64,000 bases of DNA from Anderseniella sp. (GCA_028289645.1 JANQOK010000020.1:42562-106561); one strand, 5' to 3'. Counted from the first letter of the stretch, positions 13,469 through 61,712 are shown. The notes: generated from the sequence alone by a model not told the origin. Numbers and translations: made by a program.

Positions 13469-13581
13469 CGCGGGCTCCTTTGCCGACAAAGCGTACGTAT
13501 CGCTGTCCCACCAGATCAGCAGTCGGGCTTGCAGGCAAATCAGTTTTGCGAAATATTAGGGTTAGAAAAATTGAGGCTAAT

Positions 13582-14448
13582 ATGGCTGTTGCACCTCCGC
13601 GACCGAAAGACATTCCGCTGAACGCCTTGCGGGCGTTTGAAGCTGCCGCCCGGCTTGGCGGTTTTGCCGCAGCCGCGCAGGAACTGGGCGTGACGCCGGG
13701 AGCCATAACCGCGCACGTAAAGACACTGGAGGCGGCGCTCGGCGCGGCCCTGTTTGAACGCACACCGCGCGGTGTGCAACTGAACGGTCTGGGGCGCAAG
13801 GTGTTGCCCTCTTTCACCGAGGCGTTCGACGGGCTCGGTCTGGCTGTCCAGACTCTGCGCAATGAAGCAGCCCCGAGCACTGTTCACATCGCTGCCCTGC
13901 CGTCGCTGGCGCAATTGTGGCTGTCACCGCGCCTGCCGGCCCTGCGGGCAGCGGCACCTGACATATCGATCTCGATAACGGCAATGGAAGCACCGCCCAA
14001 CCTCAAGCGCACGCCCTACGATCTAAGCCTGTTTTTCAGCAACGATAGCGGCGGCGCACTGTCCCGTGACGTGATCTTTCCCGTCTGCTCGCCGGGCCTG
14101 GCCGCGCGGCTCAGGTCGCCGCAGGACCTGTCGCAAGTGTCATTGCTGTCTGATTCAACCTGGGCCAACGACTGGGCCATATGGTCTGCTGCAGCAGGCT
14201 GCGAGTGCACGCCACGTGGACCGGTGTTCTCACTGTACACTCTGGCCGTCGAGGAGACTGTCAACGGCGCTGGCGTGCTGATGGGGCACGAAGCATTGGT
14301 CGCGTTGCACCTGGCGAGCGGCGAACTGGTGGCGCCTTTTGATCTCAAGGTTGAAATGGACAGGTCCCTCAGCCTGTGGTCGCAGCGGCATTTCAGGTCG
14401 GGCAGCGCGGCTGACAGGGTGATGCAGTGGCTGCGGGAAAACAACTGA
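13582..14448 (+). CDS. LysR family regulator, GcvA subfamily
   Basis: PLNALRAFEAAAR..F..AA.EL.VTP.A HTH; divergent from the SHMT-like gene. Confidence 0.93.
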   Translation: MAVAPPRPKDIPLNALRAFEAAARLGGFAAAAQELGVTPGAITAHVKTLEAALGAALFERTPRGVQLNGLGRKVLPSFTEAFDGLGLAVQTLRNEAAPSTVHIAALPSLAQLWLSPRLPALRAAAPDISISITAMEAPPNLKRTPYDLSLFFSNDSGGALSRDVIFPVCSPGLAARLRSPQDLSQVSLLSDSTWANDWAIWSAAAGCECTPRGPVFSLYTLAVEETVNGAGVLMGHEALVALHLASGELVAPFDLKVEMDRSLSLWSQRHFRSGSAADRVMQWLRENN

Positions 14449-14463
14449 CGCCCGAAGAGCAGG

Positions 14464-15453
14464 CTAGTTGCGTGAGCGCCACATGCCCTTGCCGGCCAGC
14501 GGGCGGTCTCTGACGACGGCCTCGCGCCGCAACACGTAAACCCCGGATGCAATGATCATCAGGGCGCCAATAAGCGTCGTGGATTTCGGCACTTCGCCCC
14601 ACAGCAGGAACGACAGGATGGTCGCCCACAGCATCGAGGTGTACTCGAATGGCGCGACGGTGGGCGCATTGCCGATACGGTAGGCGGTCGCCAGCAGCCA
14701 GAACCCCAGGGCGGAGATGAACCCGATCACCACGATCAACACCAGTTCAATCCCGGTCGGCATGTGCCATGGCAGCAGCAGGAATTTCATTGTGCCGTCC
14801 AGGCCGGCCGAAGGCTCGATATTGGCCAGCAGCACACCGATCGCGCCACCGCAGTAGAAAAACGTGATCATCATGTAGAACGCCATCACCGAGCCTGATT
14901 CCGTGATCCCCATCTTGCGGCCGAGCAGCGCCGAAATCGAGTAGCAGAAAGCCGCCAGAATAGGCAGGATGGCCGCCGCCTGAAAGGTGTCCGCACCGGG
15001 CTGGATGATCACCATGGCACCGGCAAACCCGAACAGTATGCCGGCCCATCTGCGCCAGCCCACCCGCTCTCCGAGTATCGGAACGGCAAGTGCAGTGATG
15101 AACAGTGGCGCGGTGAACCAGATCGCCACCACCGCTGTCAGCGGCATCGTCGGAAGCGCCAGATAATAGAAGAAAAACGCGCCGAATCCGATAAACGAGC
15201 GCAGCGCGTGCATGATCGGGTGTCTTGTCGCCAGCGTTCCCAGGCCGGATTCGTAGTGCACGATCATGAACATCAGGGGCAGGGCGATGATGGCGCGGAC
15301 AAACACGATCTGGTGCGCCGGATACCGGTCCGACAACTGTTTTACGATCACATCCTGAAACGAGAAGATGAATATCCCGGCACACAGGAACAGAACTGCA
15401 CGAGCCGTATCGCTCATGCCGGACAGTCGGAAATTGCCGGTGGGAACGCTCAT
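14464..15453 (-). CDS. DMT/EamA family transporter
   Basis: About 10 TM segments; GERVGWRRW and APFEYTSMLWA motifs; alternative start at 15417. Confidence 0.9.
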   Translation of the reverse strand: MSVPTGNFRLSGMSDTARAVLFLCAGIFIFSFQDVIVKQLSDRYPAHQIVFVRAIIALPLMFMIVHYESGLGTLATRHPIMHALRSFIGFGAFFFYYLALPTMPLTAVVAIWFTAPLFITALAVPILGERVGWRRWAGILFGFAGAMVIIQPGADTFQAAAILPILAAFCYSISALLGRKMGITESGSVMAFYMMITFFYCGGAIGVLLANIEPSAGLDGTMKFLLLPWHMPTGIELVLIVVIGFISALGFWLLATAYRIGNAPTVAPFEYTSMLWATILSFLLWGEVPKSTTLIGALMIIASGVYVLRREAVVRDRPLAGKGMWRSRN

Positions 15454-49306: not shown

Positions 49307-50035
49307 TTACTCCGACAATGCTGTTACGTCATCTGCCAGACAGTAGCCGATACCGTGTATTGTCTTGATGTAACGGGGCTGCCTGCTGTCCGGCTCTAGT
49401 TTTTTGCGCAACCGCATGATGTGAACATCGATGGCGCGGTCACCAACAACCGTCGCTTGCCCTCTTGTCAGGTCAAACAACTGGTCCCGGCTCAAGGCGA
49501 CACGGGGCTGCTCGATCAGCGCCCGCAGCAGGTCAAACTCCATACTTGTCAGCCCGGCATCCCGTGTGTCTTCGGTGTGCACAACGGTGCGTTCGCTGAG
49601 GTTGACGGTCCAGGTGCCAAATCTGAGCACCTGTCCAACAGAATTGGTTTTTGCCGTCGCGACGCCATCATTGTTCACCCGTCGCAACACGGATCGGATT
49701 CTGGCGACCAGTTCGCGCGGTTCGAATGGCTTGGTCACATAGTCATCGGCGCCGAACTCGAGCCCGAAAATGCGATCAAACGCCTCGTTGCGCACGCTCA
49801 GCACGATGATCGGGAGGTTCGAGTCACGCCGGACTTCCCTGGTCAACTGGAAGCCATCGGCATCTGGCAGCCCGACATCCAGGACGCACAAGTCAATGTT
49901 TTCCTGCCTTAAAGTGTCTCGCATCTGCTGTCCGGTTGCGGCGCACGAAACGCGGAAACCCTGCTTTTCCAGATAGCGTTTCAGAAACGACGTGATCTGA
50001 ACGTCGTCATCTACAACAAGAATGTGTTCGTTCAT
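49307..50035 (-). CDS. OmpR-family response regulator (TorR/DorR-like)
   Basis: ILVVDDD, LDVGLPD.DG, GADDYVTKPF.PREL.ARI; winged helix LT..EF.LL, R.IDVHI.RLR.KLE, TIHGIGY. Confidence 0.93.
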   Translation of the reverse strand: MNEHILVVDDDVQITSFLKRYLEKQGFRVSCAATGQQMRDTLRQENIDLCVLDVGLPDADGFQLTREVRRDSNLPIIVLSVRNEAFDRIFGLEFGADDYVTKPFEPRELVARIRSVLRRVNNDGVATAKTNSVGQVLRFGTWTVNLSERTVVHTEDTRDAGLTSMEFDLLRALIEQPRVALSRDQLFDLTRGQATVVGDRAIDVHIMRLRKKLEPDSRQPRYIKTIHGIGYCLADDVTALSE

Positions 50036-50157
50036 GGCAGTTCCGGCCGATCACCGGGAGTTAACACTATGCCCCGCGTTACCTACAGACATAACGAGGA
50101 AGCTGCAACCGTGCCGGTGTGCTTGCAATGCTGGACATTACAAGGCCAGATGGCGTT

Positions 50158-52365
50158 ATGGTCACCTCTTCAGACAAAGCAAAATTGCCGGTCAGGCTGG
50201 TACTGTCAGGTCTCGGCGCTGCTCTGCTACTGGCCGCCACGGTATTGGCCGGCGTTTATCTCGGCAGCCAGACGCAACAGCGGTTTCAGGACGTCGGCCA
50301 GAGCTGGCAGACCTTTACTGCGGAAGCTGAACGCCGCGGCGCGCTGCTCAGCCGGATTCGGGGGCATCTTGGTTATGGCGGCATAATCCATAACTTCAAG
50401 AACTATGTTCTGCGCCAGGACCAGCGCTATCTCGACAGCCTGATCAGGCAGTTTGAGGACTTTGGAAACACGGTCGACGAATACCGCAAGAGCGGCGCCA
50501 CGGCGGTTGAACTGGGTCATCTCAAGACCATTGAAGACACGATCGCATTGTATCGCTCCAAATTGCCCATTGCCCAGCAGGCTGCCAGGCAAAACTGGCC
50601 GCCGCTGCGAACCGACGGCCTCGTCAAGGTGGATGATACCGAGGCCGTCTCCGCGCTTGAAGCACTGGAGGCGTACTGGTGGGACAAGCATCAGGCCTCG
50701 ACACAGGACATTGCCCGGGCTGTTGATGAAGGCGAGGCGCTGGTAACTATCGGTTTCCGGTTTCTCGCTGGTCTGGCGGTCGTTGCATTGTTGCTCTACG
50801 GCTTGTTCTATCTGCTTCAGGCCGAATTGCGTCAGACCATTGGCAGACTGTCCAATGAACTGCGCGAGCGTCGCGTGGCGGAGCATGTCGCCAAGAAGTT
50901 TCAGCGCGCGGTCGATCAAAGTCCCGCCACCATCATCATCACCGACACCCAGGGCATCATTGAATATGTCAATCAGAAATTCTGTGACCTGACCGGGTAT
51001 TCAGCCGGAGAGGTAATCGGCAAGACACCGCAATTGCTGCAGTCCGGCGACGTCTCTGGTGATGAGTACGTTGCCCTGCGCCAGCAGCTGGTTCGCGGCG
51101 AAGAGTGGCGCGGCACATTTCGCAACCGCAAGAAGTCTGGAGCTCCCTACTGGGCGAAGACGGCAATTCTGCCGTTGCGTGACGACAAGGGGCTGATCAC
51201 CCATTTTATCGGGCTCGGCGAGGATCAGACAGAAAGACGCAAAGCCCGCGACCATATCCATCGCGCGCAGCGAATAGAGGCGGTCAGCATGCTGGCCAGC
51301 GGTGTGGCCCACGATTTCAACAATGTGCTGACCACCATTCTCGGCAATGTGCACCTGGCCAGGCTGGATGCCCCGGCCAAGGGCGAATTTTCGGAGGAAC
51401 TGGAGCAGATTGAGGTTGCGGCCAAGAGGGCCCGCAACCTGGTCGGGCAGATATTCGCCTTTGCCCGGCGCCAGGCAGGCGAAGCAGTCGCCGTTCAGGT
51501 AAACGAGGTTGTGGAGGAAGTCGCACATCTGCTGCAGTCGTCACTGCAACCGAACATCGCCATCAGGTGCCGGATTGACGATGCCGATATGGTGGTGAAG
51601 GCCGATCCGACCCGCCTGCACCAGGTAATCATGAACCTGTGCTCCAATGCCGCCGAGGCGATCGGGCCGCCGGGTGGCAACATCACCATCAGCGTGACGG
51701 CGGATGCTGTCGGTGAGACACCGGAAAGACGAGTATGTGTCTCGGTGAGTGACGATGGACCGGGAATCGCGGATGACTTGCAGGGAAAGATTTTTGATCC
51801 GTTTTTCACCACCAAGACCGCCGGCAAGGGAACCGGGTTGGGGTTGTCCGTAGTGGCCAACCTGGTTGGCGAGATGGGCGGCCAGATTGACGTGACAAGC
51901 ACCGTCGGGCAGGGCACCAACTTCAAGGTGCGCCTGCCGCTCAGCGATGAGCGCATAGAGAAGCGTTCGGCTTCCGGTGAATTGCCATCGGGTTCAGGTC
52001 GGATCCTGCTGATCGATGACGAAGTGGAGGTGGCGGCAACCTGCGCCAAGCTGCTGCGGCGCCTGGGTTACGACGTCGAAGAGTACTATGACCCGGTCAA
52101 AGCCATGCAGACCTTCAGGTCAGGGCCGGATCAGTTTGCGCTGGTGATCACCGATCTGGTGATGCCTGGCCTGTCCGGCAGCGAGGTTTGCCGGATTGTG
52201 CGTGAACTGCGTCCAGCCTGTCCGCTGGTTGCTTATTCGGCTTATCAACCCGACGGTATTGACTTCGATCAGGCCGGTATCATGCGCTTCATGCACAAGC
52301 CCATCGAACCCGCGCAACTTGCCCGCATTGCCAGCGAGATGACCCGCCTCGACCATGTTGGCTGA
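50158..52365 (+). CDS. Membrane hybrid sensor histidine kinase (periplasmic sensor, PAS, HisKA, HATPase, REC)
   Basis: Two TMs flanking the GYGGIIHNFKNYVLR domain; PAS; LASGVAHDFNN H-box; QVIMNLC.NA, FDPFFTTK..GKGTGLGL; C-terminal REC ITDLVMPG. Confidence 0.93.
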   Translation: MVTSSDKAKLPVRLVLSGLGAALLLAATVLAGVYLGSQTQQRFQDVGQSWQTFTAEAERRGALLSRIRGHLGYGGIIHNFKNYVLRQDQRYLDSLIRQFEDFGNTVDEYRKSGATAVELGHLKTIEDTIALYRSKLPIAQQAARQNWPPLRTDGLVKVDDTEAVSALEALEAYWWDKHQASTQDIARAVDEGEALVTIGFRFLAGLAVVALLLYGLFYLLQAELRQTIGRLSNELRERRVAEHVAKKFQRAVDQSPATIIITDTQGIIEYVNQKFCDLTGYSAGEVIGKTPQLLQSGDVSGDEYVALRQQLVRGEEWRGTFRNRKKSGAPYWAKTAILPLRDDKGLITHFIGLGEDQTERRKARDHIHRAQRIEAVSMLASGVAHDFNNVLTTILGNVHLARLDAPAKGEFSEELEQIEVAAKRARNLVGQIFAFARRQAGEAVAVQVNEVVEEVAHLLQSSLQPNIAIRCRIDDADMVVKADPTRLHQVIMNLCSNAAEAIGPPGGNITISVTADAVGETPERRVCVSVSDDGPGIADDLQGKIFDPFFTTKTAGKGTGLGLSVVANLVGEMGGQIDVTSTVGQGTNFKVRLPLSDERIEKRSASGELPSGSGRILLIDDEVEVAATCAKLLRRLGYDVEEYYDPVKAMQTFRSGPDQFALVITDLVMPGLSGSEVCRIVRELRPACPLVAYSAYQPDGIDFDQAGIMRFMHKPIEPAQLARIASEMTRLDHVG

Positions 52366-52400: not shown

Positions 52401-52537
52401 GATTCCCGCCTGAGAGAAATACCCGCGTTACATTGCGGGCATAGGCTCCCCAATGAGTTTGAGCGAAGCAACGTTGTCTGAGGTGCTGAAGACCGGCGTT
52501 GCCCGCCCATTTGCGCAACGCAAAAAGGGGAGGTGGC

Positions 52538-53659
52538 ATGGCACATGTTCCAGTAGGTCAAAACCTGTTCGGGTTAAGGGGAGCATTGCTGGCTCCGGTT
52601 ATGGTTGCGCTGACAGGCGCCTTGAGCATGCCGGCCAGCGCCGATGACTTTGGTCCGGTAAAGCCCCTGGAGGTAAAGCGCGAGCTTGCAGACCTGGGCA
52701 AGCGGCTGTTCTTCGACGAGCGGCTCTCAGGCGACACCAGCCTGGCCTGTGCCAGCTGCCATCAGCCGGACAAGGCATTCACCGACGGCAAGGCTCTGTC
52801 CGACGCCTATACGGGCTCGTCCCACTTCCGCAACACGCCGACGCTTGCCAATGTCGGCCACCGCGCGGCCTGGTTCCACGATGGGCGCCTGGGCACCAAC
52901 CTGAACGATGTGACCCGGGAATCGATCACAGAAACCTACTTCATGAACATGGACATGCGCATCATGCAGGAGCGCCTCAAGCAGGACCCTGTCTATGTTG
53001 AAATGTTTAAGAAGGCTGGCAAGGGAACCCCTTCCAACGGCGGCGCCCGCTCTGCAATCCAGGAGTTCTTGAAATCGATCACATCAAGCGGTGCTCCGTT
53101 TGACACCGGCGACATGTCAGATTCCGCCAAAGCCGGCTTTGAGCTGTTCAAGGGCAAGGCATCCTGTGCGGAGTGTCATACAGGGCCCCGGTTTACCGAC
53201 GATCAGCCGCACAATACCGGCGTGCCGGAAAATCCGGATATCTGGTCCGATCCCGACCGCCACGTGACATTTGTGACCTACGCCAAGTTCATGGGTATTG
53301 AAAACTACATGAATGTGCGCCGCGATCTCGGCGCTTATGTGCGCGATCACAAACCGGAAAGTGCCGGCAAGTTCATGACGCCGACATTGCGTGAACTGAC
53401 CTACACGGCTCCGTACATGCACAACGGCACCATGGCTTCGCTGGAAGAGGTGGTCGAGTTCTACAATGCCGGTGGCGGCAACAAGGCCAACAAGGACAAA
53501 CGCCTGCATCCTTTGAACCTGACCGACGAGGAAAAGGGCGATCTTGTCGAGTTCCTGAAGTCGCTGTCCGGCAACAGCTTCGATGTTCCGTCCTACAATC
53601 CCGGCGAGATCGACACCGATTATCCGTTGATCGCCGACTGGCGCAACCAGAAAAACTGA
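52538..53659 (+). CDS. idrP2: Di-haem cytochrome c peroxidase-family protein (IdrP-like; distal to idrB)
   Basis: Signal peptide; LG..LFFD.RLSGD, CASCH, RNTPTL, CAECH, F.TPTLR...TAPYMHNG; P1/P2 numbering assumed from position. Confidence 0.8.
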   Translation: MAHVPVGQNLFGLRGALLAPVMVALTGALSMPASADDFGPVKPLEVKRELADLGKRLFFDERLSGDTSLACASCHQPDKAFTDGKALSDAYTGSSHFRNTPTLANVGHRAAWFHDGRLGTNLNDVTRESITETYFMNMDMRIMQERLKQDPVYVEMFKKAGKGTPSNGGARSAIQEFLKSITSSGAPFDTGDMSDSAKAGFELFKGKASCAECHTGPRFTDDQPHNTGVPENPDIWSDPDRHVTFVTYAKFMGIENYMNVRRDLGAYVRDHKPESAGKFMTPTLRELTYTAPYMHNGTMASLEEVVEFYNAGGGNKANKDKRLHPLNLTDEEKGDLVEFLKSLSGNSFDVPSYNPGEIDTDYPLIADWRNQKN

Positions 53660-53672
53660 AGAGGGGCTGATC

Positions 53673-54815
53673 ATGAAATTCCAAATCTCAATCCCGCTTG
53701 CTGCAATCACCCTGGTGGCGTCCTCACTGGCGGTGTTTATAGCGCCCGCCCAGGCCCAGGATCGGCCGGCCATGCTGGCGCCGCTGGGCGATCCGCCAAA
53801 TCCGCCGGACAATCCGACCACCCAGGAAAAGGTGGAACTCGGCAAGCTGCTGTTCTTTGACGGGCGCCTGTCGGGCAACGGCGCGATGCCCTGTTCGGCC
53901 TGCCACTTGCCGGATGCCGGTTGGGACTTTCCTGAGAAGATATCTCTGGGTTATCCCGGTACCACTCACTGGCGCAACAGCCAGACCATCATCAACTCCG
54001 CCTATTACGGCAAGCTGTTCTGGGCCGGGTCCTCGAAATCGCTTGAGGGCCAGGCCAGGTCAGCCGCACGCGGCGGTGTGGCTGGAAACGGGGAAGACGA
54101 CATGATGGAGGCCCGCCTGGCCTTCGTCCCGGAATACCGCAAGCGGTTCAAGGCCGTGTTCGGCGACACCTGGCCGAACGTGCGTCATGCCTACATGGCC
54201 ATTGCCGCATTTGAACGTACGCTTGTGCAGACCGATACCCCGTTCGACAACTACATGCGCGGCGATGACAACGCCCTCAACGCGTCTCAGAAGCGTGGCC
54301 TGGACCTGTTTACCGGAAAGGCGGGCTGTGCCCAGTGTCACTCCGGTGCGATGTTGACCAACGAGAAATACTATAACCTCGGCGTGCCGCCCTATGACGG
54401 TTGGGAGACCGATCCGCTGGCGCAGATCACGTTCCGGTTCGAGCTCTATGCCAAGGGGACGAGCCAGGACAAGTACAAGAAGTTCAAGGATGATCCGGGC
54501 TTCTATTTCCGAACCAAGCAGGTCGCCGATCTCGGCAAGTTCCGTGTGCCGTCGCTGCGCTACACCAAGTACACCGCTCCCTACATGCACAACGGCATGT
54601 TGGCCTCGCTGGCCGATGTCGTCGAGTTCTACAATGCCGGCGGCGGCGAAAACGAGTTTGCAGCAACCAAGACAAAGCTGATCAAGCCGCTCGGTCTCAA
54701 CGATACGGAGAAGGCTGATCTGGTGGCGTTCATCGAAAGCCTGTCGGGAGAGCGGATCGAGATGGAACAGCCCGATCTGCCGCCCAGCGAGCCGCTGCCG
54801 GCTTCATCAAATTGA
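53673..54815 (+). CDS. idrP1: Di-haem cytochrome c peroxidase-family protein (IdrP-like; adjacent to idrB)
   Basis: Signal peptide; LGKLLFFD.RLSG, CSACH, RNSQT, CAQCH, FRVPSLR...TAPYMHNG; numbering assumed from position. Confidence 0.8.
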   Translation: MKFQISIPLAAITLVASSLAVFIAPAQAQDRPAMLAPLGDPPNPPDNPTTQEKVELGKLLFFDGRLSGNGAMPCSACHLPDAGWDFPEKISLGYPGTTHWRNSQTIINSAYYGKLFWAGSSKSLEGQARSAARGGVAGNGEDDMMEARLAFVPEYRKRFKAVFGDTWPNVRHAYMAIAAFERTLVQTDTPFDNYMRGDDNALNASQKRGLDLFTGKAGCAQCHSGAMLTNEKYYNLGVPPYDGWETDPLAQITFRFELYAKGTSQDKYKKFKDDPGFYFRTKQVADLGKFRVPSLRYTKYTAPYMHNGMLASLADVVEFYNAGGGENEFAATKTKLIKPLGLNDTEKADLVAFIESLSGERIEMEQPDLPPSEPLPASSN

Positions 54816-55414
54816 CAATGCAGGAGAAAGCCATGACTGAGAACACTGGCCTGATAGAAGCCATCAATGGACCTGCAGAAGCGCGCAAGACCGGGCGCAG
54901 CTGTGTCCTGAACCGCAGGTCGTTCCTGCTCACCTCGGGCGTTGCCACGGCCACCGTCATGGTGACCATGCACACCGCAGACGGGTTGGCCAACGTGCCG
55001 GCGCTGGTTGCCACTTACCCGCGCAAGTTGATCGGCAAACTGTCCGAACTGAAGCCGGACGAGCCGCTGGATTTCGCCTATCCGGACGACAATTCCTACT
55101 CTGAATCGATGCTTGTGAAGCTTGGCCGCGAAGCCGGCGGCGGTATCGGGCCCGACAAGGATGTCGTTGCCTTCAATTACAACTGCACCCATCAGGGCGG
55201 TCCGCTGCAGGGCACCTACCAGGCCGACGACAAGGCTCTGGGGCCGTGCCCGCTGCACCTGACCACGTTCGACCTCACCCGGCACGGCATGTTCATTTCC
55301 GGTCAGGCCTATCAAAGCCTGCCGCAGGTTCTTCTCGAGCTTGATGGTGACGATATCTATGCCGTTGGCATGTTTGGCCTGATCTATGGCCGTTACGACA
55401 ATCTGCAGGGGTAA
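54812..55414 (+). CDS. idrB: Tat-exported Rieske subunit, AioB/IdrB family
   Basis: NRRSFLL twin-arginine motif; GGGIGP..D.VAF, CTHQGG and CPLH Rieske boxes, GQAYQSLPQV.L; start 54812 or 54833. Confidence 0.85.
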   Translation: MTMQEKAMTENTGLIEAINGPAEARKTGRSCVLNRRSFLLTSGVATATVMVTMHTADGLANVPALVATYPRKLIGKLSELKPDEPLDFAYPDDNSYSESMLVKLGREAGGGIGPDKDVVAFNYNCTHQGGPLQGTYQADDKALGPCPLHLTTFDLTRHGMFISGQAYQSLPQVLLELDGDDIYAVGMFGLIYGRYDNLQG

Positions 55415-55426
55415 GGGAGACCAAAC

Positions 55427-58102
55427 ATGACAACGCCGTATTATATTCCCGAAACCAACATTCCGCTGCCGCCGGTCGATGCCGACGTGATCTCCACCGC
55501 CTGCGACTATTGCATCGTCGCGTGCGGCTACAAGGTCTATCGCTGGCCGGTTAGAGGCGGCAAGGTGGGCGGCCCGAAGGCCGACCAGAACGCATTTGGC
55601 GTCGATTTCCCGGTTGAAATTCTGGGACCCTGGGTGGCCCCGAACCAGTACAATGTCGTGCTGCACGAAAACGAGCCGCATCACGTCATCATCATTCCGG
55701 ACAAGGATGCCAAGCACGTCAACATCAACGGCAACTCGTCGATCCGCGGCGGTGCCATTGCGCAGAAGGTCTACAACCCGCAGACCCCGACCCGTGACCG
55801 GCTGAAATCGCCGATGATCCGCATGTTCGGCGTTCTGATGCCGGTGCCGTGGGATTTCGCGCTGGAGATCGCCGCTGAAGTCGGCAAGCACGTGATTGAA
55901 AAGCATGGCGCCAATGCCTACTGCGTGAAAACCTTCTCCTATGGCTACATGGAAAACACCTATGCCATCACCAAATATGCGCTAAGGCACATCTCAACCG
56001 CCAACTTCACTTTCCATGACACGCCGTCCGATGTCACCTCGACGCCGGGCTTCCGTGATGCGGGCTTTGACAATTTCGGACCGGCATATGAAGACTGGCG
56101 TGATGCCGAAACCTTGATGATCTGCGGCACCGATCCGTATGAATCGAAAACCATCCTTTTTACCGACTGGATCATGCCGGCGATTCAGGGTGGCCAGAAG
56201 ACCATCTTCCTCAGCCCGCGCAATACGGGCGGGATTGCCTATGCGGTCAAGAACGGCGGCATGTGGATCGACCTTCTGCCGGGTACCGACCTGCCGGTGG
56301 TGCTGGCCATTGCCCGGGTCATCGTCGAGAACGGCTGGCAGGACGACGAGTGGATCAGGAACTGGGTCAACAACAAATCCGAAAGCTCGTCCGGCTTTGG
56401 CCAGGGCACGCGCAACACGCCGTGGCAGTGGCGCACCACGTGGGGCAAATTCCAGACGGGCGGTTTTGACGACTGGAAAAAGTGGTTGCTCGAGCAGGAC
56501 TACGCGGTGCCGGAAAAGGCGGCGGAAATTGCCCAGATCGATGTTGCCAAGATCTACACCGCGGCCGAATGGCTGGCCAAGCCACGCGAAGACGGGTCAC
56601 GCCCGAAGGCGTCGTTCATGATCGAGAAGGGCTTCTACTGGTCGAACAACACCGGCAACACCAACGCCATATCGGCGCTCGGCATCACCTGTGGCGCCGG
56701 CGGCAGGCCGGGCCAGATGATCGGCCGCGCCGGCGGTCACCAGCGTGGCGGTCTTCGCGGTGGCAAGTACCCGCGCAACAAGTCGCCGGAAAAACTGCCG
56801 GGGCGCCGTCGCCGGGCCATGGACACCGACCGCTATCTGATGTCGGGTCATACCCGGCTGGCCCATGTCATCGGCAATACGTGGATCCAGTCCATGTGCG
56901 GCAGCCAGAGCCTGTCTGCGAAATTTGAGGAACTGACGGCTCAGAATCCGCATCAGATCAGGTCGTTTGACAAGCAGGAGATCATCGAAACGCTCAAGAA
57001 GCGCGCCGACTCCGGCGGCATGGTCGTGTTCGACCAGGACATCTACCTTGTCGACCCGATCGGGGCCCGGTTCGCCGACATCATCTTCCCGGCAGCCGGT
57101 TGGGGAGAGGACACGTTCACCCGTGCCAACGGTGAACGCAGGATCCGGCTGTATCCGAAGTTCTACGACCCGCCGGGAGAGGCAAAGCCGGACTGGTGGA
57201 TCATCGCGCAGCTTTCGAAGAAAATGGGTTTTGAGGGCTTTGACTGGAACAACTCGAACGATGTTCTCGAAGAAGGGGCACGGTTCTCCCGCGGCAGCCG
57301 CAAGGACTTCTTCATGGTCAAGGTCGCCGCCCAGAAGGAAGGCAAGACCCTGCACCAGAAACTCGGTGAGTTCGGAACCGACGGGATCCAGGGCCCTGTG
57401 ATGATGCTGGATGACGGCAGCCTGGAAGGCACCAAGCGCCTGCATGACACGACCCGCAAGCTGCCCGATGACGGTGCGGCCGGTGCCAATGTCTTCAACA
57501 AGAAGCTGACCCATTTCAATTCGCAGACCGGCAAGTGCAACATCCAGAAAGCACCGTGGTCACTGTTCTCCGACTATTGGGAGTGGCTCAGTCCGAAAGG
57601 CGATGAATTGTGGACCACGTCCGGCCGCATCAACGAGCGCTGGCAGTCGGGTTACGATGATCGCAGGCGTCCCTACATTGTGCAGCGCTGGCCGGAAAAC
57701 TGGGTTGAGCTGCATCCTGACGACGCAGCCGCCCGGGGCATCGAGAACGGCGACTATGTGATGTTGTATTCCGATCGCATCCCGGTTCAGGTTGACACCA
57801 TCATCGGCATCGAGGGCGATGACTTCACTTTCACGAAGCTGATGGAGAACGGTCATATCAAGCTGGAAAAAGCCGCCATTACTGCCGTCGCCATCGTGAC
57901 GCCGGCGCTCAAGAAGGGGGTCATGTACATGGACTTCCTGCACACTTCCCAGCCGGCCAATGCACTGGCCGGGCGGGTCGTGGACTGGATCAGCGGCAAC
58001 TACAACTACAAGATGGGTGTCGGCAATGTGAAGAAGATCGGCGAGTCCCCGTACAAGCACGACTTCCGGTCCATGTCGTTTGCACGGCGCGACATCGCCT
58101 GA
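55427..58102 (+). CDS. idrA: Molybdopterin oxidoreductase large subunit, AioA-like IdrA clade (candidate iodate reductase)
   Basis: CDYCIVACG [3Fe-4S] motif, SSIRGG, RAGGHQ, GRINE.WQ; no signal peptide of its own; context of two CCPs plus Rieske. Confidence 0.83.
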   Translation: MTTPYYIPETNIPLPPVDADVISTACDYCIVACGYKVYRWPVRGGKVGGPKADQNAFGVDFPVEILGPWVAPNQYNVVLHENEPHHVIIIPDKDAKHVNINGNSSIRGGAIAQKVYNPQTPTRDRLKSPMIRMFGVLMPVPWDFALEIAAEVGKHVIEKHGANAYCVKTFSYGYMENTYAITKYALRHISTANFTFHDTPSDVTSTPGFRDAGFDNFGPAYEDWRDAETLMICGTDPYESKTILFTDWIMPAIQGGQKTIFLSPRNTGGIAYAVKNGGMWIDLLPGTDLPVVLAIARVIVENGWQDDEWIRNWVNNKSESSSGFGQGTRNTPWQWRTTWGKFQTGGFDDWKKWLLEQDYAVPEKAAEIAQIDVAKIYTAAEWLAKPREDGSRPKASFMIEKGFYWSNNTGNTNAISALGITCGAGGRPGQMIGRAGGHQRGGLRGGKYPRNKSPEKLPGRRRRAMDTDRYLMSGHTRLAHVIGNTWIQSMCGSQSLSAKFEELTAQNPHQIRSFDKQEIIETLKKRADSGGMVVFDQDIYLVDPIGARFADIIFPAAGWGEDTFTRANGERRIRLYPKFYDPPGEAKPDWWIIAQLSKKMGFEGFDWNNSNDVLEEGARFSRGSRKDFFMVKVAAQKEGKTLHQKLGEFGTDGIQGPVMMLDDGSLEGTKRLHDTTRKLPDDGAAGANVFNKKLTHFNSQTGKCNIQKAPWSLFSDYWEWLSPKGDELWTTSGRINERWQSGYDDRRRPYIVQRWPENWVELHPDDAAARGIENGDYVMLYSDRIPVQVDTIIGIEGDDFTFTKLMENGHIKLEKAAITAVAIVTPALKKGVMYMDFLHTSQPANALAGRVVDWISGNYNYKMGVGNVKKIGESPYKHDFRSMSFARRDIA

Positions 58103-58108
58103 ACCTGA

Positions 58109-58136
58109 TCTCCGGGTGCGTTTGTGCGCCCGGAGA
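58109..58136 (+). other. Intercistronic hairpin without U-tract between idrA and the HEAT gene
   Basis: tctccggg/cccggaga 8-bp stem, extendable with G-U pairs. Confidence 0.5.
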
Positions 58137-58156
58137 ACTGCTGGGAGATCGAAGCC

Positions 58157-60460
58157 ATGGCAATTGCAATGCCCCGGCAGGACACGGCGTCCTGCGAGTT
58201 CAGCGAGCTTGCGCGCGCGCTGGCCGACATAGTTGTCAACGGCAACAATGCAGAGCGTTGCCTTGCCGTGCAGGGGTTGGGAAAACTGGACCACCCGACC
58301 GCCACGGATACTTTGATTGCCTCATTGCGCGATGCTGATCCCGATGTGCGCTGTGATGCGGCTGCCGCGCTGGCGAGTTTGAACGTTTCGGCAGCCTGTC
58401 AGCCACTGACGGACAACTTACGTGAAGACCCGGATTCCGAGGCAAAGACGCAATATGTCAAGGCGTTGCAGACCCTCGGGGCTGACGGCTGCCATGACTT
58501 GTTGTCGGCATTGGCAGTTGGCCGTGGGGAACACCACGACATAGCCTGGGATGAGGCCTATTCAGACTGGGATGACTGGCTCGACGTGCAATTGGCCGCT
58601 GTGGAGGCCCTGGGTGTGCTGGGTGCGGAGCAGGCCCCGGCGGTCATCGAGACGGCCCTCAACGACCCGGAAGGTCAGGACCTGTGGCCTGTGGCGTGCA
58701 CAGCGCTGGCGCGGCTGGGACGGCCCGGAATGGAAAAGCTGCAGCAATTGCTGTCACAGGCATCGGTGTTGAACCGCAAGCGTGTTGCTGCGGCACTTGC
58801 AGCCACGGATCCTGCTTTGTCCGGGGCGCTGATGCGACAACTTGCAGCTGATCGGGACGCCAGCGTACGTCTTGCAGTTGTCGAGAGCGCGGCCGCATCG
58901 GCAAGCGACGAAATACTGACCCTGGGACTTGATGATGTCGCCCCTGAAGTGCGAGCGGCGGCTGTCGCCGGCCTCGGGCAAGTGAGCACGAAGGCGCTCG
59001 ACAAGGCGCTCAATGATATCAGCCCGATCGTCGTTATTGCCGCCTGCAAGGCGATAGAGGGCGCCGGGCAACCGGTTGCCGGGCTGGCGCTCGTGTCGAG
59101 GACCGAACGCTCACTGCGCACCAAGCCACCAGAGGTGATCGCCGCAATGCTGGCTGCCGCCGCCGTTGCAGAGCCACGCCAGGCCTCGGCCTTGATTGAA
59201 GACATCTGCGATCACAGGAACACCGATGCCAGGGTGCGCCGTGTTTGCCTGCGGGCCGCGTCCACTTTGAACATGCCGGGTCTCAATGAAATGCTTGATC
59301 AGGCGATCGCCTCGGATGATCAGGCGGTGCGCATGGAAGCCATATCCGCATTGGCCGATCTGGCAAAGGCTGACGGCCCGGACGCAGATCGCGCGGCAGT
59401 TCAACTTGCAGAAACCATTGCCGGCGCGAAGATCGCCGCTCCTGTAGGAGAAGGCGACCAGGAAACCGGCACGGTCGTCCAGTTCGTCCCCAAAAAGGGG
59501 AAACAGGCGGCAGGCGATGAGGGTGATGCGACCATCAAGTTGGATCGCGGCGGCAATGAGATGCCATCAGCGGACAAGTCCGACAGCGACGGAACTGATG
59601 AGGCTGCACAATCCGGACAGAACGTCGATGAACCGCCTCCGCAATCTACCCTACAGGCCATCATGGCGGTTAACCCGGAGCGGATGCAGGCCGGCAATAC
59701 GGTTGAACTGGAAGATGCCGACCTGTCATTCCTGGAAATGACCGGGTCTCTCGTGCGCCGGCGCAAGCTGGACCCCGAGGCGAAACCTCCTGCCCATCTT
59801 GATGTCCGGCGTCTGGCGGCCGGTGTCGCCGGTGATACCCGCAAGTCGGTACTGGTTATGGCGCTCGCCCGTGCGGCAACCGAACGGGATGCTGCTCTCA
59901 GCGATGCTGCATTGAGCTCACTGCGCCGCCTGGCTGACCAGGACATAGATATGTCGGAGGCGCAACAGGACATGATTGTTCTGGCTTCGGGCAATGATGA
60001 CGGGCGCTGCCGGCAGGCAATACCGGTTCTCGGCGCAATTGCCTCGCCTGAGTCCGTTGAAGCGGTCCGCAATACCGCCGGCCACCGCTCACCCCAGGTG
60101 AGGGCAGCCTCATTGGCCGCACTGGTAACGGCCGGAACATTGACAGACGAGGAGTTTGCTTCGGCTGTTTCTGATCCAGATCACAAGGTCAGGCTCGCGG
60201 CAATAGAGGCAAGACAGCAAACCGGTCATCCCGGCATGGTGGCGCTCCTGCTCGAGCAGGCCCGGATGGAATCAGGCCGCCACAAGCATGAGGTTGCGAA
60301 ATTGCTGGCGACAGGTCCGAGTGATGCATTGCCGACGTTGACTGACTGGATCGCTGGTGCCGACACCCAAAGCAGATATCTGGCGCTGGAGATGCTGCCG
60401 GTGGTGCTTGCGGCCATGGCTGGCAACAAGGAAGGACATGATCATGCAGCCGCATCATAG
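58157..60460 (+). CDS. Large HEAT-repeat (PBS-lyase-like) protein
   Basis: Repeated L.D.DP.VR..AA.AL units, central acidic disordered insert, no signal peptide; stop overlaps the moeA start. Confidence 0.87.
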   Translation: MAIAMPRQDTASCEFSELARALADIVVNGNNAERCLAVQGLGKLDHPTATDTLIASLRDADPDVRCDAAAALASLNVSAACQPLTDNLREDPDSEAKTQYVKALQTLGADGCHDLLSALAVGRGEHHDIAWDEAYSDWDDWLDVQLAAVEALGVLGAEQAPAVIETALNDPEGQDLWPVACTALARLGRPGMEKLQQLLSQASVLNRKRVAAALAATDPALSGALMRQLAADRDASVRLAVVESAAASASDEILTLGLDDVAPEVRAAAVAGLGQVSTKALDKALNDISPIVVIAACKAIEGAGQPVAGLALVSRTERSLRTKPPEVIAAMLAAAAVAEPRQASALIEDICDHRNTDARVRRVCLRAASTLNMPGLNEMLDQAIASDDQAVRMEAISALADLAKADGPDADRAAVQLAETIAGAKIAAPVGEGDQETGTVVQFVPKKGKQAAGDEGDATIKLDRGGNEMPSADKSDSDGTDEAAQSGQNVDEPPPQSTLQAIMAVNPERMQAGNTVELEDADLSFLEMTGSLVRRRKLDPEAKPPAHLDVRRLAAGVAGDTRKSVLVMALARAATERDAALSDAALSSLRRLADQDIDMSEAQQDMIVLASGNDDGRCRQAIPVLGAIASPESVEAVRNTAGHRSPQVRAASLAALVTAGTLTDEEFASAVSDPDHKVRLAAIEARQQTGHPGMVALLLEQARMESGRHKHEVAKLLATGPSDALPTLTDWIAGADTQSRYLALEMLPVVLAAMAGNKEGHDHAAAS

Positions 60461-61712
60461 TGCCGGACCAGGCATTGCAGCCTGCACAGGATCCCAGAGC
60501 GGAAAGCTGACGACGCTGGATGTGGCTGTCGAACGCGGGTGCAGGCTGGCAAGTCCGGTTGAAGACACCATCAGCCTGCCACTGGAAGACGCATGTGGAC
60601 GGGTTCTTGCCACGCCGGTCACGGCACCTGGACCCCAGCCGCACTTCGATAATTCAGCCATGGACGGATATGCCGTGAGGTTTGCGGATCTGTCGGGCAT
60701 CGGTCCCTGGAGGTTGACGGTCGACGGCAGGATCGCCGCTGGCGACACCGGCGCCGGGCTGCACACGGCCCGGGCACTGCGGGTGCTGACCGGCGCGCCG
60801 GTGCCGCCGGAATTTGATGCGGTTATCATGCAGGAGCATGTCGAGCGGCTGGATGGTGCAATACTTGTTGCCCGGCGTCCCCGACCTGGTGAGAACATCC
60901 GGCGAGCCGGTGAAGACATCAAGCCGGGTCAGACATTGCTGGAATGCGGACATGTCTTGTCGCCGGCACGGCTGGCACTGGCAGCGTCAACCGGGCTGGC
61001 AATGCTGGATGTGCGCCGCAAGGTGCGTGTCGCAATCTTTTCAACGGGTAACGAACTCCGCCAGCCGGGTGAAACCTTGAACTTCGGGCAGATCTACAAT
61101 TCCAACCGCTTCATGCTCAAGGGCCTGCTTGCCCAGCCGATGCTCGAGGTCATTGACCTGGGCTCGTTGCCGGACGACAGGGTGAGGCTTGCCGAGGCGC
61201 TGGCCGCCGCGTCAAAGCAGGCAGATATCGTGATCACGACCGGAGGCGTATCGGTCGGCGAAGAAGATCATATGCCAGACCTGGTCCGCGACGCCGGGGG
61301 GCAACTGCACGTCCTGAACGTCGCCATGAAGCCAGGCAAGCCGGTCACGCTTGGAGAGATGAGCAGTGCGTTGTATGTCGGGTTGCCGGGAAATCCTGTA
61401 GCGGCATTCGTCACGTTCAACCTGATTGCGCGGCCCATGATCGACAGACTTGCGGGCGCAACAAGACCGCAAAACAGCAAATTCCCTGCAATCAGTGATT
61501 TCCAGCGGCGCAGGCGGCCGCATCGCGTCGAGTACGTTCCGGTTCGGATCACGGGCCGTGACGATCAGGGGCTGCCGATGGTGCAAATGCTGGGGCACGG
61601 CAGTTCTGCCGCGCTATTGCCGATCGCGCTGGCAGATGGGCTGGCGATGGTTGACGCAGGTGTCGGTGAATTGTCCAAAGGCGACACAATCACCTACCTG
61701 CCGTTCGGCTGA
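60438..61712 (+). CDS. moeA: Molybdopterin molybdotransferase (gephyrin-like)
   Basis: GRVLA, P.FDNSAMDGYA, TGAPVP, STGNEL, IYNSN, TTGGVSVGEED, MKPGKP, GLPGNPV. Confidence 0.95.
   Translation: MIMQPHHSAGPGIAACTGSQSGKLTTLDVAVERGCRLASPVEDTISLPLEDACGRVLATPVTAPGPQPHFDNSAMDGYAVRFADLSGIGPWRLTVDGRIAAGDTGAGLHTARALRVLTGAPVPPEFDAVIMQEHVERLDGAILVARRPRPGENIRRAGEDIKPGQTLLECGHVLSPARLALAASTGLAMLDVRRKVRVAIFSTGNELRQPGETLNFGQIYNSNRFMLKGLLAQPMLEVIDLGSLPDDRVRLAEALAAASKQADIVITTGGVSVGEEDHMPDLVRDAGGQLHVLNVAMKPGKPVTLGEMSSALYVGLPGNPVAAFVTFNLIARPMIDRLAGATRPQNSKFPAISDFQRRRRPHRVEYVPVRITGRDDQGLPMVQMLGHGSSAALLPIALADGLAMVDAGVGELSKGDTITYLPFG

What the first reader, a model, noticed from the sequence alone, without database searches (positions are those of the whole stretch)
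58109..61712. HEAT-repeat protein fused operonically to a dedicated MoeA: putative new molybdoenzyme maturation module
Seen: a 767-aa cytoplasmic HEAT solenoid with a central acidic disordered insert (around VVQFVPKKG and PPQSTLQAIM). Its stop overlaps the moeA start, and it is separated from idrA by a U-less hairpin that could step down expression. No TorD/DmsD/NarJ-type chaperone gene is present, although IdrA must fold with cofactor and bind IdrB before Tat export. From unverified recollection, similar HEAT proteins sit beside other periplasmic DMSO-reductase-family operons. Inference: a non-TorD scaffold or chaperone coupling Mo insertion to IdrAB assembly.
Basis: inference. Interest (0 to 1): 0.68.

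Follow-up and report, generated by a model that had tools for sequence, protein, structure and literature searches.

The report
Conserved HEAT-repeat partner of iodate reductase
A large cytoplasmic helical-repeat protein of unknown function is encoded next to one major branch of bacterial iodate-reductase genes in every genome checked, which makes it a good candidate for the missing helper that assembles this type of molybdenum enzyme; its function has not been tested.

Summary
Window 58157-60460 encodes a 767-aa acidic protein (pI 4.7) with no signal peptide. It has two HEAT arms and a roughly 110-aa low-confidence acidic linker. It sits 54 nt after idrA, behind an 11-bp hairpin with no U tail. 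Its stop overlaps moeA by 17-23 nt.

The gene family is tightly tied to idr:
- It lies directly downstream of idrA in 79/79 assessable genome loci.
- All 50 assessable metagenome loci found from the HEAT side are idr-linked.
- In Gammaproteobacteria it stays beside idr in other arrangements (divergent; ahead of a kinase/sigma-54 regulator pair).
- Across 301 genomes of the order, HEAT and IdrA co-occur almost perfectly.

It is under purifying selection (dN/dS about 0.18) but evolves far faster than IdrA (31% against 84% mean identity).

Three limits apply:
- The moeA link is sporadic and arose at least twice.
- The one experimentally-proven-type idr locus I could reach (Azonexus; IdrA 49% identical) has no such gene.
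- No relative was found beside any other molybdoenzyme.

The best reading, which is inferred, is an Idr-specific cytoplasmic assembly or maturation scaffold that is not of the TorD type. A regulatory role is not excluded. I found no paper that describes it.

The parts
49307..50035 (-). OmpR-type response regulator, divergent from the idr operon
   Evidence: ORF. The same gene (Response_reg + Trans_reg_C) sits in the same place in relatives L001, L003, L004, L007 and L008.
50119..52365 (+). Hybrid PAS histidine kinase with a receiver domain
   Evidence: Pfam PAS, HisKA, HATPase_c and Response_reg.
52499..53659 (+). Di-haem cytochrome c peroxidase (first idrP-type gene)
   Evidence: Pfam CCP_MauG, 1.1e-37.
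53673..54815 (+). Di-haem cytochrome c peroxidase (second idrP-type gene)
   Evidence: Pfam CCP_MauG, 8.2e-42.
54812..55414 (+). idrB: Rieske small subunit with a twin-arginine signal (CVLNRRSFLL)
   Evidence: TIGR02694 scores 123.5 bits against a cut-off of 95.65; Pfam Rieske and TAT_signal; alignment.
55427..58102 (+). idrA: AioA-like Mo-bisPGD / [3Fe-4S] large subunit, 891 aa
   Evidence: TIGR02693 scores 415 bits; Pfam Rieske_3, Molybdopterin and Molydop_binding. It is 77-99% identical to IdrA of 80 genome loci and 49% identical to the Azonexus hydrophilus plasmid copy.
58109..58136 (+). 11-bp GC-rich hairpin between idrA and the HEAT gene, without a U tract
   Evidence: In relatives with a spacer of at least 40 nt, the best hairpin has a median of -25.1 kcal/mol against -16.7 for shuffles.
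58157..60460 (+). HEAT-repeat protein, 767 aa, cytoplasmic and acidic; the subject of the finding
58538..58615 (+). Family signature (V/I)AWE/D..x..WDDWLDVQxAAxxALG (residues 128-153; W131, L142 and Q145 invariant)
   Evidence: Alignment A2. The motif W[DE][DE]WL[DE][VI]Q alone retrieved 67 family loci from metagenomes.
59456..59776 (+). Acidic, low-confidence linker (residues 434-540), variable in length across the family (76-154 aa)
   Evidence: AlphaFold2 pLDDT 37-65; composition and length.
59636..59662 (+). Conserved linker motif (F/Y)PxSTLxAI (residues 494-502; T498 and L499 invariant)
   Evidence: It is also present in the distant members L089, L098 and L101.
60444..61712 (+). moeA paralogue (molybdopterin molybdotransferase), start overlapping the HEAT stop
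   Evidence: Pfam MoeA_N, MoCF_biosynth and MoeA_C. NF007960 scores 374.7 bits, below its cut-off of 440. It is one of three MoeA genes in the genome.

Best explanation
The gene encodes the founding member, for this window, of an undescribed family of HEAT-repeat proteins of about 700-800 aa. The family is a conserved fifth component of one large branch of Idr-type (iodate-reductase, AioA-related) gene clusters.

The protein stays in the cytoplasm, whereas every other idr product works in the periplasm. The most likely role is therefore as a scaffold or holdase that binds the IdrA/IdrB precursors before Tat export. In this picture the two HEAT arms wrap the apo or partly assembled enzyme while Mo-bisPGD and the Fe-S clusters are inserted and IdrA pairs with the signal-bearing IdrB. 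The protein is made at a lower level than the structural genes. In a few lineages a moeA copy is translationally coupled to it, which would supply Mo insertion locally.

Shown: existence, fold, cytoplasmic location, purifying selection, and strict genomic linkage to idr. Inferred: binding to IdrA/IdrB and any role in cofactor insertion or export proofreading.
For: **1. Linkage seen from the IdrA side.** An ORF matching the family HMM lies directly downstream of idrA on the same strand in 79 of 79 assessable loci. These come from species of Hyphomicrobiales, Rhodobacterales, Rhodospirillales, Binatia, Thermodesulfobacteriota and others.

**2. Linkage seen from the HEAT side.** Of 50 assessable metagenome loci found through the family motif, 48 have idrA directly upstream. 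The other two are one locus with an internally deleted idrA remnant.

**3. Linkage survives rearrangement.**
- In L089/L090 the gene is divergent from idrP.
- In Vibrio sp. VB16 it heads a HEAT, kinase, sigma-54 regulator operon divergent from idr.
- In Sedimenticola hydrogenitrophicus it is divergent from a bd-like/cytochrome c/idr supercluster.

**4. Co-occurrence in 301 genomes of the order.**
- 22 have both genes, 2 have HEAT only, 3 have an IdrA-like gene only, and 274 have neither.
- The two HEAT-only genomes are fragmented assemblies with the gene at a contig edge.
- The three IdrA-only genomes have copies only 46-51% identical to the window's.
- There is one HEAT copy per genome.

**5. 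It is a real gene.** dN/dS is 0.16-0.20, and more than 140 clusters at 50% identity match end to end.

**6. Fold.** It resembles generic partner-wrapping HEAT scaffolds such as PP2A-A, karyopherins and CAND1. No transmembrane segment or signal peptide is present.

**7. Chaperone context.** No TorD/NarJ gene lies at the locus, while three other molybdoenzymes of the same genome each have one. A 2023 review states that Aio-type enzymes have no chaperone gene in their operons and may need an unidentified one (PMC10609526).

**8. moeA adjacency.** HEAT-moeA adjacency arose in at least two MoeA lineages.

**9. Expression.** A stable hairpin, sometimes with a U-rich tail, follows idrA in most loci that have a spacer. 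This fits lower expression than the structural genes.
Against: - There is no sequence or fold similarity to any known redox-enzyme maturation protein.
- The experimentally-proven-type idr locus I could reach is an Azonexus hydrophilus plasmid (IdrA 49% identical to the window's). It has no family member within 12 kb or on the whole 319-kb plasmid.
- Papers on Denitromonas IR-12, Pseudomonas SCT, Azoarcus DN11 and Aromatoleum TC-10 list no such gene. An iodate reductase can therefore mature without it.
- HEAT evolves about ten times faster than IdrA (31% against 84% mean identity). That is odd for a protein with a large interface on a very conserved partner.
- In Vibrio the gene is co-oriented with the sensor kinase and regulator, which hints at regulation.
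Confidence: 0.45

Rival explanations
1. The HEAT protein is a regulatory adaptor. It would bind the cytoplasmic part of the idr sensor kinase, the response regulator or another transcription factor, and tune idr expression. For example, it could report precursor or cofactor status.
For: - In Vibrio sp. VB16 the gene is the first of a HEAT, PAS-kinase, sigma-54 regulator operon facing idrP.
- About half of the alphaproteobacterial loci carry a kinase/regulator pair next to idr.
- HEAT scaffolds such as PP2A-A are classic regulatory adaptors.
- Low expression relative to the structural genes would suit a regulator.
Against: - HEAT is present in every alpha-type locus, including the many with no adjacent two-component system, such as Roseibium L024-L034, L033 and L037.
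- The regulators differ between arrangements (OmpR type here, sigma-54 type in Vibrio), while the HEAT family is the same.
- Idr clusters of the experimentally proven type have a kinase/sigma-54 pair but no HEAT.
Confidence: 0.2
2. The HEAT protein is a cofactor carrier or Fe-S/Moco targeting adaptor rather than a holdase. It would bind bis-PGD, or dock Fe-S delivery proteins, on its conserved Trp-rich acidic face and hand the cofactor to apo-IdrA. Bilin-handling CpcE/NblB HEAT proteins or eukaryotic MMS19 would be the analogues.
For: - The weak best NCBIfam matches are to NblB and CpcE, which are PBS-type HEAT proteins that handle bilins.
- The signature VAWE..WDDWLDVQ has three conserved Trp residues.
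- moeA is repeatedly adjacent.
- The MMS19 analogy is from my own knowledge.
Against: - The NblB and CpcE scores are far below the family cut-offs (54 against 300; 26 against 330).
- There are no conserved Cys/His clusters.
- moeA adjacency is seen in only about 8% of loci.
- Nothing here tests ligand binding.
Confidence: 0.15
3. The protein has a cytoplasmic job that is only indirectly tied to the enzyme. Examples would be coping with iodine species or peroxide that leak into the cell, or acting as an inert passenger inherited with the island.
For: - It evolves fast.
- It is absent from idr clusters of the experimentally proven type.
- One cultured strain (Labrenzia sp. DG1229, L029) has the gene split into two ORFs.
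Against: - Purifying selection acts in all pairs tested.
- The gene is retained in about 130 loci across several phyla and in three gene orders. A passenger would have been lost.
- No catalytic motif is conserved.
Confidence: 0.1

Closest known systems
idrABP1P2 iodate-reduction island (Pseudomonas sp. SCT, Denitromonas sp. IR-12, Azoarcus sp. DN11, Aromatoleum TC-10; marine Alphaproteobacteria such as Roseovarius azorensis)
   Same: The window has two di-haem peroxidase genes, a Rieske/Tat small subunit and an AioA-like large subunit in the order P-P-B-A, with a two-component system upstream. Alphaproteobacterial clusters of this type have measured iodate-reducing activity (PMC11445184).
   Different: Published descriptions list four core genes plus variable extras: a two-component system, cytochrome c551, and moaA or moeB. 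They call the surroundings poorly conserved (PMC8692401, PMC8801600, PMC10149662). Here a fifth gene is invariably linked in the branch whose IdrA is at least 55% identical to the window's. It is absent from the one locus of the experimentally proven type that I could read.
TorD/DmsD/NarJ redox-enzyme maturation proteins (Pfam PF02613) and NapD
   Same: The proposed role is the same: a cytoplasmic, enzyme-specific helper encoded with a Tat-exported Mo-bisPGD enzyme.
   Different: There is no sequence or fold relationship. Those proteins are all-helical or ferredoxin-like and roughly 90-200 aa; this one is an 80-kDa two-armed HEAT solenoid. No PF02613 match exists in the protein or at the locus.
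PBS-lyase-type HEAT proteins (CpcE/CpcF, NblB, E. coli YibA, alphaRep designs)
   Same: The repeat type is the same: Pfam HEAT_2, with the repeated motif D.DpxVRxxAAxALG.
   Different: Those proteins are much shorter (200-300 aa) and have a single arm. Scores are far below the NblB and CpcE cut-offs. They lack the WDDWLDVQ signature and the acidic linker, and they have no link to phycobilisomes here.
aioBA-cytC-moeA1 arrangement of arsenite oxidisers (Rhizobium sp. NT-26)
   Same: An extra moeA copy is placed downstream of an Aio-type enzyme operon (PMC3673622).
   Different: No HEAT gene is reported there. In the window, moeA is coupled to the HEAT gene rather than to a cytochrome c gene.
Eukaryotic HEAT scaffolds (PP2A A subunit, karyopherin-beta, CAND1, SF3B1)
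   Same: These are the best structural matches. They are long alpha-solenoids that wrap folded partners, and some carry an acidic regulatory loop (the acidic loop is from my own knowledge).
   Different: TM-scores are only 0.2-0.46 and identity is 10-15%, so this is generic fold resemblance and not homology that predicts function.

Membership tests
HEAT-repeat proteins of the PBS-lyase type (Pfam HEAT_2, PF13646) | Tandem helix-turn-helix repeats of about 30 aa that score above the Pfam gathering threshold | tested here: met
   121.9 bits against a cut-off of 27.7, over five stretches.
HEAT-repeat proteins of the PBS-lyase type (Pfam HEAT_2, PF13646) | Alpha-solenoid three-dimensional structure | tested here: met
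   The AlphaFold2 model has pLDDT 88.1 and about 40 paired helices in two arms. Foldseek hits are all HEAT/ARM solenoids.
CpcE/CpcF/NblB bilin lyase family | Score above the NCBIfam equivalog cut-off | tested here: not met
   NblB scores 54.3 against 300; CpcE scores 25.6 against 330.
TorD/DmsD/NarJ maturation chaperones (PF02613) | Match to the Nitrate_red_del domain | tested here: not met
   There is no such hit in the HEAT protein. The genome's three PF02613 genes lie on other contigs, beside other molybdoenzymes.
TorD/DmsD/NarJ maturation chaperones (PF02613) | Binds the Tat signal peptide or apo form of its cognate enzyme | not testable with these tools
   This needs binding assays or multimer modelling. 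The structure tool here takes only single chains.
Idr-type (iodate reductase) gene cluster | An AioA-like large subunit with an N-terminal 3Fe-4S domain, plus a Rieske small subunit carrying the Tat signal | tested here: met
   TIGR02693 scores 415 bits; Pfam Rieske_3; TIGR02694 scores 123.5 bits; TAT_signal is present.
Idr-type (iodate reductase) gene cluster | Two di-haem cytochrome c peroxidase genes directly upstream of idrB and idrA | tested here: met
   Two CCP_MauG genes lie at 52499-54815. The same order is seen in all relatives.
Idr-type (iodate reductase) gene cluster | Demonstrated iodate reduction by the enzyme | not testable with these tools
   Activity was shown for Roseovarius azorensis IdrA in PMC11445184. 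The window's IdrA is 82-83% identical to IdrA of other Roseovarius and Aliiroseovarius genomes. The assayed protein itself was not compared.
MoeA molybdopterin molybdotransferase | The three MoeA domains (MoeA_N, MoCF_biosynth, MoeA_C) | tested here: met
   All three score above the Pfam cut-offs.
MoeA molybdopterin molybdotransferase | Score above the NCBIfam equivalog cut-off for MoeA (NF007960) | tested here: not met
   374.7 bits against a cut-off of 440. It is a divergent paralogue, 37-38% identical to the genome's two other MoeA genes.
Intrinsic (Rho-independent) terminator | A GC-rich hairpin followed by a U tract | tested here: not met
   The hairpin is present. Only 1 T occurs in the next 9 nt, and the terminator scan does not list it.

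The most novel reading that the evidence does not exclude
The family is a new structural class of redox-enzyme maturation protein. It would be a two-armed HEAT clamp that holds apo-IdrA together with the Tat-signal-bearing IdrB in the cytoplasm. It would recruit the last steps of Mo-bisPGD synthesis (MoeA/MobA) to the enzyme, and release the complex to Tat only once it is complete. That would make it the 'unidentified chaperone' postulated for Aio-type enzymes, at least for this Idr branch.
Probability: 0.3. Interest if true: 0.8.

Novelty: new variant of a known kind. Interest (0 to 1): 0.62.

Why it matters
Aio-type molybdoenzymes (arsenite oxidase, iodate reductase) are the stated exception among exported Mo-bisPGD enzymes. 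No assembly chaperone is encoded with them, and a 2023 review leaves the helper 'unidentified' (PMC10609526).

A protein family is invariably encoded with one large branch of iodate reductases. It is found across marine Alphaproteobacteria, some Gammaproteobacteria, Binatia and Thermodesulfobacteriota. That gives a concrete candidate that can be tested genetically.

The finding also redefines the marine idr cluster as a five-gene unit. It gives a sharp sequence marker (WDDWLDVQ) for that branch in ocean metagenomes. It may also explain why earlier neighbourhood surveys reported 'poor conservation' around idr. This is my inference: those surveys grouped genes by sequence similarity, and this gene evolves too fast to be grouped that way.

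If the protein is not a chaperone, it is still an unexplained obligatory partner of an enzyme that matters for the marine iodine cycle.

Tried and rejected
- **First word-index search.** The search with the single protein found only about 16 relatives. This suggested a tiny family, but that was an artefact of word sharing. HMM scans of fetched loci and the exhaustive HMMER search show hundreds.
- **Known-family searches.** Sequence search of PDB and Foldseek gave only generic HEAT, alphaRep, PP2A and karyopherin matches, with no functional lead. Pfam and NCBIfam gave no link to any chaperone family.
- **An IdrA or IdrB feature that tracks HEAT presence.**
  - The basic insertion KYPRNKSPEKLPGRRRR is absent from NT-26 AioA.
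  - It is present in a similar form in the HEAT-less Azonexus IdrA, so I rejected it as a HEAT docking mark.
  - IdrB signal regions are alike in all branches.
- **A second conserved gene downstream of HEAT.** None was found; the best cluster occurs in 18 of 106 loci.
- **Published proteomics.** I looked for HEAT in the active iodate-reductase gel band of R. azorensis. It is not listed, but only the ~100-kDa band was analysed, so this is uninformative.
- **Multimer modelling.** The available structure tool cannot model HEAT with IdrA, IdrB or MoeA together.
- **Genomes of the proven iodate reducers.** Whole genomes of Pseudomonas sp. SCT, Denitromonas IR-12 and Azoarcus DN11 could not be reached. 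Only an Azonexus hydrophilus plasmid of that type was searched.
- **Reading the hairpin as a terminator.** Rejected for the window, because there is no U tract. It may still act as a partial stop or an RNA-stability element.


Full report
**What is in the window**

On the + strand, 52499-61712 holds six tightly packed genes. They are two di-haem cytochrome c peroxidases, a Rieske/Tat small subunit, an AioA-like Mo-bisPGD large subunit, a HEAT-repeat protein and a MoeA paralogue. A hybrid PAS kinase and a divergent OmpR-type regulator lie upstream. The first four genes have the order and content of the alphaproteobacterial iodate-reductase cluster, idrP-idrP-idrB-idrA. The large subunit is 77-99% identical to 80 such genes in reference genomes.

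The HEAT gene most likely starts at ATG 58157, which gives 767 aa. That is 54 nt after the idrA stop. Most of the spacer is an 11-bp GC-rich hairpin (58109-58136) with no U tract. The TAG at 60458-60460 overlaps the moeA start by 17-23 nt. No promoter-like site lies between idrA and moeA.

**The protein**

- Pfam finds only HEAT repeats.
- AlphaFold2 with 72 relatives gives a confident model (pLDDT 88.1, pTM 0.79). It has two solenoid arms (about 5-430 and 545-766) joined by a linker of about 110 residues with low confidence.
- The protein is 80 kDa with pI 4.67, and has no hydrophobic segment or signal peptide. It is therefore cytoplasmic, unlike all other products of the cluster.
- Structure and sequence searches of PDB return only generic HEAT scaffolds: alphaRep designs, YibA, PP2A-A, karyopherins, CAND1 and SF3B1.
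- The best-conserved part is the N-arm (residues 30-200), with the signature VAWE..WDDWLDVQxAAxxALG and DExGQDL.
- The linker varies from 76 to 154 aa and is acidic. It always carries (F/Y)PxSTLxAI followed by a short basic patch.
- No Cys/His cluster is conserved.

**Linkage to idr**

*From the IdrA side.* I fetched 80 loci from one-genome-per-species contigs. An ORF matching the family HMM follows idrA on the same strand in all 79 that extend past idrA.

*From the HEAT side.* The motif W[DE][DE]WL[DE][VI]Q retrieved 67 metagenome loci. Of the 50 with enough upstream sequence, 48 have idrA directly upstream. The other two are one locus in which idrA is cut down to a 65-aa remnant.

*Distant members in other gene orders.*
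- In L089/L090 the gene is divergent from idrP (IdrA 68% identical).
- In Vibrio sp. VB16 it heads a HEAT, kinase, sigma-54 regulator operon that faces idr.
- In Sedimenticola hydrogenitrophicus it is divergent from a bd-like oxidase/cytochrome c/idr supercluster, and it is the only copy in that genome.

*Co-occurrence in 301 genomes drawn evenly from the window's order.*

| Gene content | Genomes | Note |
|---|---|---|
| Both HEAT and IdrA | 22 | adjacent wherever both lie on one contig |
| HEAT only | 2 | fragmented assemblies, gene at a contig edge |
| IdrA-like only | 3 | 46-51% identical to the window's IdrA |
| Neither | 274 | |

The window's own genome has exactly one family member. The exhaustive HMMER search shows more than 140 end-to-end clusters at 50% identity.

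**Evolution**

| Protein | Mean pairwise identity (same 67 loci) |
|---|---|
| HEAT | 31% |
| IdrA | 84% |
| IdrB | 75% |
| Peroxidases | 66-71% |

dN/dS is 0.16-0.20 for HEAT against 0.014-0.025 for IdrA. The gene is therefore selected but changes fast. This probably explains why published neighbourhood surveys did not pick it up. Those surveys group genes by sequence similarity and reported poor conservation around idrABP1P2 (PMC8692401). That link is my inference. I found no paper that mentions iodate reduction together with a HEAT-repeat protein. I also found none that links HEAT repeats to molybdoenzyme chaperones.

**What is not conserved**

- moeA follows the HEAT gene only in the window's near relatives (L004, L005, L010, L011; L103 at 55% identity) and in an unrelated group (L066, L163, L164, L168; 36-37% identity).
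- In a tree the two MoeA groups fall apart. The second is closer to another MoeA paralogue of the window's own genome. The coupling therefore arose at least twice but is rare.
- Extra Moco genes beside Aio/Idr operons are already known. Examples are moeA1 in Rhizobium NT-26 (PMC3673622) and moaA or moeB in idr islands.
- No other gene is conserved downstream of HEAT.
- The hairpin after idrA recurs. In 55 loci with a spacer of at least 40 nt, the best hairpin has a median of -25.1 kcal/mol against -16.7 for shuffles, and 12 have a U-rich tail. However, 17 loci have almost no spacer.

**Limits of the family**

- The idr type in which iodate respiration was first proven is only about 49% identical in IdrA.
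- An Azonexus hydrophilus plasmid copy has the order kinase, sigma-54 regulator, P, P, B, A, cytochrome c, moaA. It has no family member within 12 kb or anywhere on the 319-kb plasmid.
- The papers on Denitromonas IR-12, Pseudomonas SCT, Azoarcus DN11 and Aromatoleum TC-10 list no such gene.
- I could not search those whole genomes.
- The HEAT partner therefore marks the branch whose IdrA is at least about 55% identical to the window's. It does not mark iodate reductases in general.
- I saw it next to no other molybdoenzyme.

**Interpretation**

A cytoplasmic scaffold is encoded with periplasmic enzymes only, is retained through three gene orders, and is apparently made at a lower level. Such a protein is most simply a factor that acts on the IdrA/IdrB precursors before Tat export.

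This fits the absence of a TorD-type gene at the locus. The same genome supplies one for each of three other molybdoenzymes. It also fits the open question about Aio-type enzymes stated in PMC10609526.

The points against this reading are:
- there is no similarity to known maturation proteins;
- the gene is absent from the idr type in which iodate respiration was first proven;
- its sequence changes fast;
- in Vibrio it is placed with the regulators.

I put the maturation/assembly reading at about 0.45, a regulatory adaptor at 0.2, a cofactor-carrier variant at 0.15 and other roles at 0.1. None of these can be decided by sequence alone.

**Earlier notes of this scan**

Several earlier follow-up agents had flagged the same HEAT partner as their boldest reading on other genomes. 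I treated these as leads and re-derived the linkage, signature and rate independently here.

Noticed in passing
L029:12769-15146 (Labrenzia sp. DG1229): The HEAT gene of this cultured strain is split into two adjoining ORFs (12769-14208 and 14205-15146). This is either a frameshift or a sequencing error. If it is real, the strain is a natural mutant worth testing for iodate reduction.
   Followed up: no
L145:9662-9859 and L146 (two metagenome contigs): idrA is reduced to a 65-aa ORF that joins residues 1-37 to 861-891. Both peroxidases, idrB and an N-terminally shortened HEAT gene remain. This is either a decaying locus or an assembly artefact.
   Followed up: partly
L169 (Azonexus hydrophilus plasmid NZ_CP151407.1, 232994-259651): An idr cluster of the experimentally proven type lies on a 319-kb plasmid. 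It is followed by cytochrome c and moaA, then by Tn7-like genes (TnsA to TnsD) and an IS21 element. This fits mobility of the island.
   Followed up: no
L097 and L101 (Sedimenticola hydrogenitrophicus contig, 58-84 kb): Two complete idrP-P-B-A clusters lie about 12 kb apart on one contig. The first is embedded after bd-like oxidase, multihaem cytochrome c and SCO1 genes. There is a single HEAT gene for both.
   Followed up: partly
window 56732-56830 (IdrA residues 436-468): IdrA carries a basic insertion (KYPRNKSPEKLPGRRRR) next to the GGHQRGG motif. The insertion is missing from NT-26 arsenite oxidase, but a similar form is present in the Azonexus IdrA. It may be an Idr-versus-Aio marker.
   Followed up: partly
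window 54812-54960 (IdrB N-terminus) and relatives: All IdrB precursors have a long region ahead of the twin arginines, and a conserved Cys three to four residues before them (C-x-x-N/S-R-R-x-F-L-L).
   Followed up: no
G000 contig C10:81073-88264: A second MoeA paralogue lies about 3 kb from another large molybdoenzyme gene. Pairing moeA copies with particular enzymes therefore seems to be a habit of this genome.
   Followed up: no
L170:5028-7061 (Vibrio sp. THAF190c, 1.7-Mb 'plasmid'): A 677-aa ORF sits at the HEAT position, divergent from idrP. It matches the family HMM only faintly (12.8 bits), whereas the Vibrio sp. VB16 protein in the same position scores 118 bits. This is an extreme case of the family's divergence.
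   Followed up: no
L006, L097 and several L1xx loci: Many idr clusters of this branch are preceded by bd-like oxidase subunit I, cytochrome c and EB_dh-domain genes. Earlier notes of this scan report the same association.
   Followed up: no
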